A DNA stretch of 64,000 nucleotides from Mobula hypostoma. Lineage: Eukaryota. Both the position numbers and the translations under genes were made by a program. The DNA lies in the NCBI RefSeq assembly GCF_963921235.1, contig NC_086097.1:152522001-152586000 (forward strand). The letters are read 5' to 3'. Positions 9,644 to 13,736 of the stretch are shown here, in pieces. The notes below the pieces were generated by a model. It was given only the letters and a program-made list of their open reading frames with translations. It was not told the origin of the DNA and ran no database searches. Positions within the stretch are counted from its first letter, which is position 1. Every line of letters starts with the position of its first letter.

Positions 9644-10340
9644 TGTAAGGGGGTTTCGACTTTTATGTTACTACGGAGGCTAATTAAAATGGCGTCTTTG
9701 TTATGTTAATGTGGGGAATGCGGCTTTGTTGTGTTAAACGCTGAGAAAGTTTGTGCTAGTAGCTTGTTTTGGTTTAGAGGGTGATAAGAGGACACTATTA
9801 ACTAATTGGGATAGTTGTTATGGTTTTGGTGTATTTGAAGATACTGTATGCGCGGGGTTTTGGGGCAGAAGGCGGGAGAGCGAGACAGAGGATAGACCAG
9901 GTGCTGTGAGTCCGCTAGTGGGGTCGGACCCCGAGCGGGACGTTTGGCGAGGAGACGGAGACGGACTCGTGTGGAGCGTCTGGTCGACCACCGTTGTTGG
10001 TCCCAGGCAGCCGGTCGAGGTGGTCCGAGGGGTCGCAGGGTGAAGAAGAAGGTCCTTGAGCTCCAACGGTTTTTGTGCATGAAGAGATTGAACTTTGATA
10101 AGTGTGGCGCCTTTTATTTTCCTTTTATATTTTATTCTCTCTTAATTATATAGTTCCAGTAATATTTATAAACTGTAAATCATTTAATTGCATCTGGTGT
10201 ATTGTCCGTTATTTGGGCGGGGTGGGGTACCTCACACAGCATCCACACAAACGAATTACCCAGTTTGGCGGGGCCGAGGCTGTTTCCCTAGACGACAGCG
10301 AGCCGAGCGACCCTGAGGGTGGCCGGGGGGGGGGGCTACA
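9644..10340 (+). repeat. 5' LTR (697 bp)
   Basis: tgtaagggggtttcgac...ggggctaca, a direct repeat of 13044-13736. Confidence 0.95.
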
Positions 10341-10341
10341 T

Positions 10342-10363
10342 TGTGTGGGCTTTTGTCTGGGAT
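10342..10363 (+). promoter_or_regulatory. degenerate primer-binding site (tRNA-Pro-like)
   Basis: tgtgtgggcttttgtctgggat immediately after the LTR resembles TGGGGGCTCGTCCGGGAT. Confidence 0.5.
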
Positions 10364-10559
10364 TGGATCTACTGGTATGCTGTGTGGGTGCCCTGTTTAA
10401 ATCTGTAATGTGTGTCTCTGTGGGTTATTTGCTGGTTATTGCTGTATGTGTGGTGGGTGAGGTCTTTGTTCGAGTTCAGACTTGCATTGACGAGTTGGAG
10501 GTGGAACTCGGGGCTATCCATGCGGTTGGGAGAGAGAGGAAAGAGTGGTCTGATTTGGA

Positions 10560-11049
10560 GGTAGGATCTGCGAATAAATGTTCTAGCTCTGGCAGGCTCC
10601 GCCTGGCACTGCGGATAGTGTCCACCCCAAGAGGGGCAGAGGCGTGCAAGATGTGGGCGGAGCGGATCTCGCAGTTGTTAGATGAGTGGCAGTGCTCGGT
10701 TGAGGGAGAGCGACAGGGATTGGTTGAAAGTTTGAGTAGGCAGGCTGGTGACGGTGTTAGAGCTGTTAGGTTCACTTACACCGTAGTGACAGCTGTCAGT
10801 TATTTGAAAGAAGGGGGAAAGTTTTCAGTCTGTCTTCTCTGGCTAGGAGGGGGGCTAAATTGCTTGCAGTGCCAGGGGGATCATTTCAGGGAATCAGCCC
10901 CTCCTTCAGTTGTTCAGCTGATCAGAGAGGTGTCGGGAAACTTAGTGGAGGCCCAGTGGGGGAACGGCTTGGGGTCTCTGGGGAAGCACATTCCCAGCAA
11001 TGTACCGATGAACTTCCGAAAGGAAAACACCCTATTCCTGAAGGCTTAG
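10560..11049 (+). pseudogene. PNMA-like Gypsy gag remnant
   Basis: [37 protein letters not shown] resembles the PNMA/Gypsy capsid motif GEE.YE.W.EQ..QM..EWQCS..EKR.R..ESL; zinc-knuckle remnant CLQCQGDHF. Confidence 0.75.
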
Positions 11050-11243
11050 AGGGACCACGCCCCAAGGTGTCGCTATGGATAGAGGGAAGCAATGCTAAAG
11101 CTATCCTCGACCCCGAGTCACAGATCAAGTTGTTGTACAGTTCGTTTTACAACCTGTGTCTGAAGCATTTATCCTTGACAACCGCAAGGGCACCGGAGAC
11201 TTTGGGTACTAGTGGCAGTAGTTATCCAGAAGACGATGATTAG
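11030..11243 (+). pseudogene. dead aspartic protease
   Basis: [36 protein letters not shown] aligns to ALLDTGSQV, with the catalytic DTG changed to DPE. Confidence 0.75.
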
Positions 11244-11479
11244 TTAATGACCCTGGAAGTCATGGAGGCATTGTCTGGGCACCCAGCGTGTCAAGTTGCT
11301 TCTGAAGACGTGTGAAGCAGCCTTGAGCCAGTACCAAATTTAAGCGAGACCCAGCGGTGGTACGGCTTGGGGAAAGTAGCTGAGGGTGAGACCCTCTTAG
11401 TAGCTGCTCCGAACTACCACGAGGGAGGGGAGTTGACCGCTGAAGACACCTCAGTGAGAGAGAGGTCGCCGCAACTGGA

Positions 11480-11740
11480 CCCTAGTGGCGTGGAAAATGA
11501 AGGCAGCGTTTGTATGGATTATGCGATGTGGTTTAATGTGCTGAATCTGAGGGGTGGATGATCCTGACGAGTGCGGCTGTTGAGCTGAAGATGGCAGTTA
11601 CTAGTTCCCTAGGATTCTTCCGATCCAAAAAGATGCCCAAGGGCATATCCGGAGCCCCTGCATCCTTCCCGTGGGGCACGAGGAAGACCATGGGCAAGTG
11701 AGGGTGTGTGGAGTTTTGGCGTATGTGGATGACCGCCTAG
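11480..11740 (+). pseudogene. fragmented Gypsy reverse transcriptase motifs
   Basis: VCMDY, WFNVLNLRGG, MPKGISGAPASF and VLAYVDD occur in the correct order with the intervening sequence deleted. Confidence 0.75.
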
Positions 11741-11894
11741 AGCTTGGATTCGCCTGGGGGACTATGAGGCGAGGCGAGTGGCTGAGCCCGGGCGACCGAA
11801 GTGAAGTGTCAAATGTGGAGAAGTTTTTGGCCAGAGGAGTTTGGTGCAATGTGAGAAAAATGACCTGACATACCAGTTGAACTGCCTGGTGTTG

Positions 11895-12542
11895 GGACAG
11901 ATGGTGGTGGACCGGGGGATGGAAACCCAGGTCGTCAATCTGAATGAGACACAGGGGAGAGAGGGGATTTGCACCACACTGTGGTCATGTACTGATGAAT
12001 TAATCCAGCGAGAAGAAACAATGACCCACCTTCGAAGGGATCAGCAGAAACTCAAGACGTCCATTCAGAACAGATTGGAAGACTTACAAGTTAGGGAAGA
12101 TTAAGGAAATGTTCTGACTAAGGTCAACATAAAACTGAGAGCCCAGGGAGGGGAGTTTGACTACACTCCCGAGGAGGTGAAGACATAGAGGACAGATCTC
12201 GGAGAAGGGAGGCGGACGCTTGAGAGGAACCTGAAGGTGACTATCGCGAGTTTAAATGAAGAGGAATAACTGAAAGTTGACCTGGAAGACGTCCTCAGGA
12301 AGAAACAACCGGAGGCTGAATATTCTTTAACTGCTGCTTTTCAGGTCAGGATGGAAGAAGCTGGTGGGGTAACTGCATCCCAGATTGAGATGGCCAGGAA
12401 CCCTGAGTCAGAACTGCGGAGGCTGTGGCGAGAGTTGAAGGAGTCCCCGAAGAAGCTGACGTCTCGGCTGCAGGAGGCTGAAGGGGTAGCCCCGGCTAAC
12501 TGTTTCAGTTTGGAGAAACTCAAACAGCAGCTACTGATCGAG
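11895..12542 (+). pseudogene. MYH16: captured sarcomeric myosin heavy-chain rod fragments, MYH16-like
   Basis: One frame with 3 stops: [107 protein letters not shown]. These match myosin II motifs LDDLQAEEDKVN.LTK, RLEEAGGATSAQIE and RKLAARLQEAE..SLEK.KQRL. The paralog assignment is from memory and less certain than the family. Confidence 0.85.
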
Positions 12543-13030
12543 GGAATGAGGAAGGATATGGGTTCGAAGGATGATGTGCTGCACATGTGGTACATGCTGC
12601 CTTTCGCTAACTTCCCCGTGATTGAGGAAGAGACCTTTGGCCCTTCTCCCACTGAGTCAGGTGTAGTGGGGAGGGCTAGCTGTGGGCAGTCTGAGTTACG
12701 GCAGGATCAGGAAGGAAAAGAAGCGGGGCCCCGGACATGAGACAGGGGGCTCCGAGCTGTAATGGTGGCCTGAATGAGAGAGGAGTTGGCAAGCGGGCCC
12801 GAGGTATCCCTAGTAGTGTCTGAGCCTTTTGGGTTTAGGTGAGGGGGTACGGAGGTCTCGGAGGGTTAAGAAGCTCCCAGATAGGTTGGCCTATGTAGCG
12901 CCCGTGGGACGGGAGTAAGGTCCACTGTTTGGGGAGCACTGTCACTGTGTGTATCTGTGTATGTGTGTGTTGTGTGTCTGCAGGACTGGTTGGCGAGTTA
13001 TTTAGAAGTCATGAGGATATGACTTTATTT

Positions 13031-13043
13031 GGTGGGGGGAGAG
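13031..13043 (+). promoter_or_regulatory. polypurine tract
   Basis: ggtggggggagag abuts the 3' LTR. Confidence 0.8.
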
Positions 13044-13736
13044 TGTAAGGGGGTTTCGACTTTTATGTTACTGTGTAGGCTAATTAAAATGGCGTCTTTG
13101 TTATGTTAATGTGGGGAATGCGGCTTTGTTGTGTTAAACGCTGAGAAAGTTTGCGCTAGTAGCTTGTTTTGGTTTAGAGGGTGATAAGAGAGTGCTATTA
13201 ACCAATTGGGATAGTTGTTATGGTTTTGGTGTATTTGAAGATACTGTATGCGCGGGGTTTTGGGGCAGAAGGTGGGAGAGCGAGACACAGGATGGATGAT
13301 GTACTGTGAGTCCGCTAATGGGGTCGGACCCCGAGTGGGACGTTCGGCGAGGAGACGGAGACGGACTCGTGTGGAGCGTCTGGTCGACCACCGTTTTTGG
13401 TCCCAGGCAGCCGGTCGAGGTGGTCCGAGGGGTCGCAGGGTGAAGAAGTAGGTCCTTGAGCTCCAACAGTTTTGTGCACAAAGAGATTGAACTTTGATAA
13501 GTGTGGTGCCTTTTATTTTCCTTTTATATTTTATTCTCTCTTAATTATATAGTTCCAGTAATATCTATAAACTGTAAATCATTTAATCGTATCTGGTGTA
13601 TTGTCTGTTATTTGGGCGGGGTGGGTTACATCACACAGCATCCACACAAACAAATTATCCAGTTTGGCGGGGCCGAGGCTGTTTCCCTAGATGACAGTGA
13701 ACCGAGCGACCCTGAGGGTGGCCAGGGGAGGCTACA
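13044..13736 (+). repeat. 3' LTR (693 bp)
   Basis: Direct repeat of 9644-10340 ending ggctaca. Confidence 0.95.

What the first reader, a model, noticed from the sequence alone, without database searches (positions are those of the whole stretch)
9644..13736. LTR retrotransposon carrying a captured host myosin heavy-chain (MYH16-like) rod sequence
Seen: a complete insertion (two ~695-bp LTRs, GACT TSD, PBS, PPT) whose interior runs gag, dead protease, RT scraps, ~650 bp of coiled-coil code, then a typical Gypsy end (RRSRRVKKLPDRLAY near 12870); no RNase H or integrase core is recognisable. Known: the coiled-coil blocks match myosin II S2/LMM motifs in the native order. [24 protein letters not shown] fits recalled MYH16 LKMTIDNLNEMERSKLDLEEVVKKR better than the [25 protein letters not shown] of fast/cardiac MYH. 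Inference: a muscle-gene mRNA was recombined into the element during reverse transcription, analogous to retroviral transduction, and the chimera moved as a non-autonomous family. I do not know of a described myosin-carrying LTR family.
Basis: partly seen in the sequence, partly recalled or inferred. Interest (0 to 1): 0.92.

Follow-up and report, generated by a model that had tools for sequence, protein, structure and literature searches.

The report
Ray retrotransposon carrying captured myosin rod
This is one dead copy of an abundant jumping-gene family in a ray-like genome that swapped its integrase for a spliced piece of an unusual, possibly motor-less myosin gene and kept one long reading frame free of stop codons while the encoded protein decayed, which hints that being translated mattered more than the protein itself.

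Summary
Confirmed. 9644-13736 is a complete non-autonomous Gypsy-type element: LTRs of 697/693 bp, GACT duplication, and 11898-12535 coding myosin II rod in native order. It is a family: 40 of 40 scored genome matches are at least 95% identical (857 candidates), and 13 of 16 parsed full copies have perfect, all different, 4-bp duplications. Older, less deleted subfamilies show the myosin joined in frame just after RNase H, where cargo-free relatives have integrase, with introns removed and short shared sequence at two junctions. This scan found the family three times before on other DNA. Two things are new here. First, the donor is not the MYH16 ortholog (60% DNA identity over three exon blocks of an older copy) but a separate myosin gene (92%) that seems to lack a motor domain. 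Second, the 669-codon pol-myosin frame stayed open across 202 fixed changes (0 stops, about 9 expected), with no amino-acid constraint. Best reading: template-switch capture, spread by a helper element, and selection for translatable RNA, probably to escape nonsense-mediated decay (inferred, about 50%). A gag stop shared by six insertions argues against a strict need. The mechanism class is known; the scale and frame-keeping are unusual.

The parts
9640..9643 (+). Left target-site duplication GACT (right copy 13737-13740); the site lies in a CR1-like LINE fragment
   Evidence: other LINE copies in a run read through with one GACT (table 7)
9644..10340 (+). 5' LTR, 697 bp, TG..CA
10341..10362 (+). 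Primer-binding site, degenerate here; 5 of 16 parsed copies carry the form that I recall as the tRNA-Pro 3' complement
   Evidence: tRNA identity recalled, Rfam gave no hit
10408..11049 (+). Deleted PNMA-type gag remnant, open in this copy; no stop shared by half of 29 copies
10761..12773 (+). Family-wide long frame (669 codons, -1 to gag): protease remnant, RT scraps, RNase H scrap, myosin pieces, pol tail. This copy has 8 stops and 3 frame-breaking indels not shared by the family majority
11043..11836 (+). Protease remnant (active-site motif altered), linker and RT scraps
   Evidence: RVT_1 E 2.7e-13 on older copy L052
11837..11897 (+). RNase H scrap
   Evidence: 73% to older copies; RT_RNaseH_2 E 1.5e-13 on L052
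11898..12535 (+). Captured myosin rod (S2/LMM), about 212 codons in six blocks in native order, about residues 796-1310 of reference P0003; spliced junction at 12383/12384; internal jump near 12445
12536..13025 (+). Pol tail to the stop at 12771, then 3' region with the RRSRR..PDRLAY-coding stretch
   Evidence: that this tail is the parent's post-integrase tail is inferred, no cargo-free copy was read that far
13031..13043 (+). Polypurine tract
13044..13736 (+). 3' LTR, 693 bp

Best explanation
A Gypsy/Ty3-type element with a PNMA-type gag co-packaged the spliced mRNA of a host myosin-rod gene (G000 contig C68, 14.52-14.68 Mb). Reverse transcriptase switched onto it just after RNase H, jumped about 210 codons inside it, and switched back near the end of pol, so myosin replaced integrase (structure shown; template switching inferred from short shared sequence). 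The chimera was then moved in trans by integrase-bearing relatives (family shown; helper inferred) and split into subfamilies with further deletions, the window's being the abundant young one. Along the lineage to it, stops and net frameshifts in the pol-myosin frame were purged while amino acids drifted freely (shown statistically). The most likely reason is that the element RNA had to be translated nearly to its end to avoid nonsense-mediated decay and be packaged (inferred, about 50%). The myosin piece then serves as stop-free filler, not as myosin. The window copy is dead. The confidence given is for capture plus family spread plus non-chance frame-keeping, not for the decay mechanism.
For: Family: 40 of 40 scored matches at least 95% over 679-681 of 681 bases, 857 candidates; 28 of the 29 other loci cut match the interior and 3' LTR; 13 of 16 parsed full copies have perfect, all different 4-bp duplications, LTR K2P 0.024-0.080. 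Replacement of integrase: cargo-free relative L066 continues from the same RNase H end into Integrase_H2C2 (E 2.7e-18) and rve (E 2.9e-7, under cut-off); 40 of 40 scored relatives are 89-100% alike, 2212 candidates. Spliced: a 2.7-kb intron of the donor is missing at 12383/12384, the cargo crosses a second donor exon end after the internal jump, and exons 139 kb apart are joined within about 800 bases in L053. Shared sequence: AGGAG at the 5' junction in parent and donor, GAGGAG at the internal jump. Donor: L053 344/375 bases to C68 against 226/375 to C36; window 135/162 against 102/162; cargo joins C68 in the tree. Open frame: 0 stops shared by half of 29 copies over 10761-12770, while the other two frames have 46 and 58 over the whole alignment; 202 fixed differences over 381 codons between six older and 29 young copies, N/S 2.76 against 2.05 for rare changes (Fisher p 0.13), 0 stops against 8.9 expected (Fisher p 6e-4); simulations expect 4-9 stops, and 4 of 1350 runs had none; clear deletions of 159, 120, 27, 21, 105 and 9 bases are multiples of three, while 54 of 58 distinct indel events among young copies break the frame. 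Premature stops in gag trigger Upf1-dependent decay of unspliced Rous sarcoma virus RNA (PMC2925335, Background read).
Against: A gag stop at 10558 is shared by 7 of 29 copies, six of them one clade with different 3' flanks, so that sub-lineage moved with a broken gag. Sister copies L005 and L022 share a stop at 12525 and a 4-base insertion near 12736, both close to the natural stop. Among changes shared by 4-14 young copies, 2 of 44 are stops against 16 of 394 private ones: no depletion. The gag frame test alone is weak: 1.3-2.7 stops expected. Two of five older copies share a frameshift in RNase H. Template-switch deletions in coding, heptad-repeat DNA may favour multiples of three with no selection (inference), and the automatic deletion map was noisy in the RT region. 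Yeast mini-Ty1 and mini-Ty3 move in trans with most of the interior deleted (PMC4974528, passages). The 29 young copies were the best matches to the window's cargo, not a random sample. The helper and the 3' junction's donor exon were not read.
Confidence: 0.75

Rival explanations
1. Same capture and spread, but the cargo is wholly neutral: the frame looks kept because it was inherited open, few replication cycles separate the subfamilies, and template-switch deletions tend to be in frame.
For: Gag-stop clade of six insertions and no stop depletion among shared polymorphisms; N/S as neutral; minimal Ty1/Ty3 elements need no internal frame (PMC4974528, passages).
Against: 0 stops among 202 fixed base changes against about 9 expected, which a deletion bias cannot explain; a short out-of-frame patch near 11316-11365 is entered and left by compensating indels.
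Confidence: 0.2
2. The chimeric pol-myosin protein itself helped the element, for example a coiled-coil product co-assembling into helper particles and drawing its own RNA in.
For: All recognisable blocks but one short patch read in their native frame in one ORF; Mobula birostris has annotated 313-450 aa products of this frame; between-subfamily dN/dS is 0.66-0.88 in four of six segments.
Against: Those ratios overlap the within-family decay values of 0.5-1.0; fixed N/S 2.52 in myosin against 1.98 for rare changes; repeated deletions; altered protease motif; Pfam recognises nothing in the 450-aa product.
Confidence: 0.12
3. A LINE-made retrocopy or a repair patch landed inside an integrated element, which was later amplified.
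For: The cargo is spliced; LINEs are abundant in the window.
Against: No poly(A) and no duplication around the cargo; it replaces integrase instead of adding to it; both ends are internal to the coding sequence; shared short sequence at two junctions.
Confidence: 0.05
4. The donor is the MYH16 ortholog (jaw-muscle myosin), as first proposed.
For: Best protein hits are labelled myosin-16 or myosin-16-like; the cargo has window matches of 79-81% to two C36 exons.
Against: 60% against 92% DNA identity and 50% against 82% protein identity for C36 versus C68; C36 groups with Chiloscyllium myosin-16-like at 100% support and the cargo does not.
Confidence: 0.02

Closest known systems
LTR-mediated retrocopies of animals (Tan et al. 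2016, Genome Res 26:1663, PMC5131818; abstract and sections 6, 8, 9 read; supplements not seen)
   Same: Partial spliced mRNA inside an LTR element, short shared sequence at switch points, no poly(A) or own duplication, sense and in-frame cargo, able to retropose again.
   Different: [quoted passage not shown] Here there are hundreds of candidate places, several subfamilies about 20% apart, and a frame kept open with no amino-acid constraint.
Maize Bs1 (as described in PMC5131818, section 9; original papers not read)
   Same: Non-autonomous LTR element with captured host exons, same switch points in all copies.
   Different: One to five copies, three donor genes, proposed functional hybrid protein; here one donor, far more copies, no sign of protein-level selection.
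Acutely transforming retroviruses and other transducing retroviruses (recalled)
   Same: Host mRNA replaces replication genes; helper-dependent spread.
   Different: No env, intracellular, no evidence that the cargo protein was selected.
Vertebrate MYH16 (PMC6402096, passages read)
   Same: Donor shares MYH16's extra introns in the region read (exon ends near residues 1020 and 1049) and is slightly nearer MYH16 (56-62%) than canonical MYHs (55-58%).
   Different: Outside the MYH16 clade; introns far longer; no motor exon found; the paper notes that MYH16's extra introns are shared with molluscs, so they are ancestral and do not prove orthology.

Membership tests
Ty3/Gypsy LTR retrotransposon | Two direct LTRs with TG..CA ends and a 4-6 bp target duplication | tested here: met
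Ty3/Gypsy LTR retrotransposon | PBS after the 5' LTR and PPT before the 3' LTR | tested here: met
   tRNA-Pro identity recalled
Ty3/Gypsy LTR retrotransposon | Order gag, PR, RT, RNase H, IN | tested here: met
   Order PR-RT-RNase H in older copies, integrase next in cargo-free relative L066; integrase missing in this family
Ty3/Gypsy LTR retrotransposon | RT phylogeny inside Gypsy | not tested
   No reference RT set was fetched; clade rests on domain order and the PNMA-type gag
Non-autonomous LTR family | Many independent insertions lacking enzymes | tested here: met
Non-autonomous LTR family | Autonomous partner with matching LTR and PBS | tested here: inconclusive
   Integrase-bearing relatives exist but their LTRs were not read
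LTR-mediated retrocopy (Tan 2016) | Intron-less partial host mRNA between element sequences | tested here: met
LTR-mediated retrocopy (Tan 2016) | Short shared sequence at switch points | tested here: met
   5 bases at the 5' junction, 6 at the internal jump; 3' junction not tested; chance level not computed
LTR-mediated retrocopy (Tan 2016) | No poly(A) or own target duplication | tested here: met
LTR-mediated retrocopy (Tan 2016) | Co-transcription with the LTR | not testable with these tools
   Only contigs of runs guessed to be RNA were available
MYH16 ortholog (donor) | Groups within the MYH16 clade | tested here: not met
   C68 and cargo lie outside the MYH16 clade (99) and the canonical clade (100) in an unrooted tree of 252 columns
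MYH16 ortholog (donor) | Motor domain upstream of the rod | tested here: inconclusive
   No match near C68:14.5 Mb in two searches that scored all 74 and all 24 candidates; the upstream DNA itself was not read beyond 270 bases

The most novel reading that the evidence does not exclude
A vertebrate non-autonomous LTR lineage was kept under selection for translatability alone: pol ruins and captured myosin code act as stop-free filler that protects the RNA from nonsense-mediated decay, a constraint visible as a stop deficit with neutral amino-acid change. Its cargo came from an undescribed, motor-less myosin-rod gene of cartilaginous fishes with a CpG-island start, plausibly expressed in the germ line.
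Probability: 0.3. Interest if true: 0.78.

Novelty: new variant of a known kind. Interest (0 to 1): 0.55.

Why it matters
It is an unusually clear vertebrate record of retrovirus-like gene capture followed by long helper-driven amplification, with donor exons, parent element and graded subfamilies all in one genome. The stop deficit without protein constraint gives a direct test of whether RNA surveillance shapes parasitic LTR elements, and the other cargo families noted in this genome are ready replicates. The donor points to a third deep sarcomeric-myosin lineage, perhaps motor-less, for which the protein searches found no close relative. Practically, copies are entering ray annotations as genes, one labelled a GSTT2 isoform.

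Tried and rejected
Pfam on the window's cargo: no myosin hit, only a weak coiled-coil family; decay and deletions explain it. MYH16 ortholog on C36 as donor: rejected. First tree had two cargo blocks in the wrong frame and was replaced. Blind fetch of 10 kb upstream of a donor exon held no exon; exon-sized searches for two more donor exons were swamped by element copies, so the donor exon at the 3' junction and five internal exons stay unread. L065, fetched as a cargo-free parent, is interrupted by other insertions after 107 bases. Protein searches with donor exons found nothing closer than 66% (120 listed of 2005) or 54% (115 hits); the Atlas gave only generic myosin-tail clusters: none of this names the donor or proves it unannotated. 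Sequencing runs: no RNA holder listed; 20 of 24 rows in 6 studies and 4 coded organisms hold part of the stretch, four runs laid, contigs only, so nothing on expression or copy number. Rfam and ARAGORN: nothing. No clear poly(A) hexamer at the expected place in 8 LTRs. L020 (truncated) was left out of the 29-copy alignment, L063 (intermediate subfamily) out, and 5 of 21 full stretches could not be parsed. No structure or complex prediction was run: a decayed coiled coil would not be informative. Ten paper searches listed no report of a myosin-carrying LTR family, of this donor, or of frame-keeping in such elements; Repbase, Dfam and subscription journals were not searchable.
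Full report
Observation. The element is real. The LTRs are 9644-10340 and 13044-13736, 94% alike (K2P 0.055-0.057), with TG..CA ends, GACT on both sides, a degenerate PBS and a PPT. It sits in a CR1-like LINE piece; other LINE copies in a sequencing run read through the site with one GACT. 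Read with X at its three stops, the cargo hits myosin-7 in the PDB at E 9.4e-8, with three blocks in native order against myosin-4. Pfam gave no myosin hit for this decayed copy. The genome is ray-like: the closest proteins are Mobula birostris predictions, 89% identical, which are other copies of this element.

Family. A search of the genome with the cargo gave 857 candidates; all 40 scored are at least 95% identical over nearly the whole length. Candidates are not a copy count. Of 29 other loci cut, 28 match the interior and 3' LTR. Of 21 full stretches (20 fetched plus the window), 16 were parsed; 13 have perfect 4-bp duplications, all different, and LTR pairs differ by K2P 0.024-0.080. Two of the three mismatches look like parsing slips. 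Four coded organisms hold part of the stretch in public runs, as contigs only.

History. Searching with a fish MYH16-like protein exposed older copies with longer cargo. Seven were read: 84-91% alike among themselves, 71-88% to the window's interior in blocks, with LTRs only patchily alike. In them RT (E 2.7e-13) and RNase H (E 1.5e-13) are clear, and myosin begins a few codons after the end of RNase H. A cargo-free relative shares that point and runs on into integrase; such relatives are many (2212 candidates, 40 scored at 89-100%). So myosin replaced integrase. The young family keeps an RT stretch that the older copies lost, and the older ones keep myosin that the young lost, so they are sister lines from a longer chimera; L063 is intermediate.

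Donor. The genome has a true MYH16 on C36 (88% to Chiloscyllium myosin-16-like, 74-80% to most other MYH16s) and a second gene on C68 at 14.52-14.68 Mb. Over three exon blocks older copy L053 matches C68 at 344 of 375 bases and C36 at 226; the window matches 135 and 102 of 162. A 2.7-kb intron is absent at 12383/12384. Parent and donor share AGGAG at the 5' junction. The jump of about 210 codons inside the cargo falls on a shared GAGGAG and is followed by the last bases of a later exon, then the next exon (that next exon was not read in the donor). In an unrooted tree the C68 gene and cargo stand apart from MYH16 (99) and canonical MYHs (100). Two searches that scored every candidate found motor exons of 15 class II myosin loci but none near the donor. 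Its first known exon has an in-frame ATG 19 codons upstream in CpG-rich DNA (observed/expected 1.26, against 0 at the same place in C36). I infer a motor-less rod gene, at about 45%; a gap or a diverged head is not excluded, and protein searches found no close relative to confirm it. A CpG-island gene would more easily be present in germ cells than a jaw-muscle mRNA (inference).

Open frame. In 29 young copies no stop is shared by half of them over 669 codons (10761-12770), while the other frames carry 46 and 58 over the whole alignment. Each copy has since gained 2.2 stops at 2.8% divergence, and 54 of 58 distinct indel events break the frame. Between six older and 29 young copies there are 202 fixed differences in 381 alignable codons, with N/S 2.76 against 2.05 for rare changes (p 0.13), yet no stop where 8.9 are expected (p 6e-4). 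Simulations agree (4 of 1350 runs without a stop). Clear deletions are multiples of three, and a patch of about 16 codons near 11316-11365 is read out of frame between compensating indels. So the frame was kept and the protein was not. Against a strict need: a gag stop at 10558 marks a clade of six independent insertions, two sister copies share late breaks in the long frame, shared polymorphisms show no stop depletion (2 of 44 against 16 of 394), and two of five older copies share an RNase H frameshift. The gag stop lies 150 bases after the first ATG; such early stops are recalled to escape decay and allow reinitiation, which I did not test.

Mechanism. Capture by template switching follows the model of Tan et al. 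2016 (PMC5131818; abstract and sections 6, 8, 9 read; supplements not seen and may list further fish cases). For frame-keeping I favour escape from nonsense-mediated decay: premature gag stops cause Upf1-dependent decay of unspliced Rous sarcoma virus RNA (PMC2925335; abstract and Background read). Yeast mini-Ty elements need no internal frame (PMC4974528; passages read), so this is not a general rule. Shown: structure, family, donor, splicing, replaced integrase, stop deficit. Inferred: template switching, helper, decay mechanism, motor-less donor, germ-line expression.

Novelty. The class is known. Ten searches of the open literature listed no myosin-carrying LTR family; repeat libraries were not searchable. 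This scan reported the family three times before as MYH16-type, useless cargo, and noted four other cargo families in the genome; those notes are unchecked leads. Verdict: new variant of a known kind, interest 0.55.

Noticed in passing
G000:C68:14524967-14683097 (L057, L058, L061): Myosin-rod gene outside both the MYH16 and canonical MYH clades, very long introns, four exons read with no stops, no motor exon found; 0.6 Mb from a cluster of eight canonical MYH genes.
   Followed up: partly
G000:C18:48745314-48746731, C50:30689110-30689772, C184:304888-305403, C157:172388-172903, C21:138691427-138692201, C22:72797295-72798020: Long intron-less myosin-tail matches, most with stops, covering later parts of the rod than this cargo; processed pseudogenes or other captures.
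   Followed up: no
Proteins P0002, P0005, P0006 (XP_072134064.1, XP_072107779.1, XP_072103657.1): Mobula birostris gene models that are this element's long frame; one is named glutathione S-transferase theta-2 isoform X1 but shows no such sequence.
   Followed up: partly
Young versus older copies, LTRs: LTRs share only short patches at 65-81% while interiors are about 78% alike throughout: possible LTR replacement from successive helpers.
   Followed up: no
PBS of 16 parsed copies: A recurring variant PBS coexists with the perfect form; the window copy has the variant.
   Followed up: no
L065 (G000:C18:3274750-3276950): Cargo-free relative cut just after RNase H by an inverted LTR of the older family and a CR1-like LINE.
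   Followed up: partly
window 20707-21999 and 29834-31121: Two CR1-like LINE pieces 96.6% alike over 1294 bases with open RT frames of 374 and 406 codons.
   Followed up: no
window 37532-37792 and 40480-40739: 261-base direct repeat, 94% alike, 2948 bases apart, around LINE fragments.
   Followed up: no
window 32135-32211: Short inverted match (79-82%) to the 3' part of this LTR: a fragment of a related LTR.
   Followed up: no
G000:C68:16025082-16025342 (L059): Broken canonical MYH exon at the edge of the cluster.
   Followed up: no
Protein P0004: A 54-aa metagenome sequence filed in the same 90% cluster as P0002 with no visible likeness; probably a clustering artefact.
   Followed up: no
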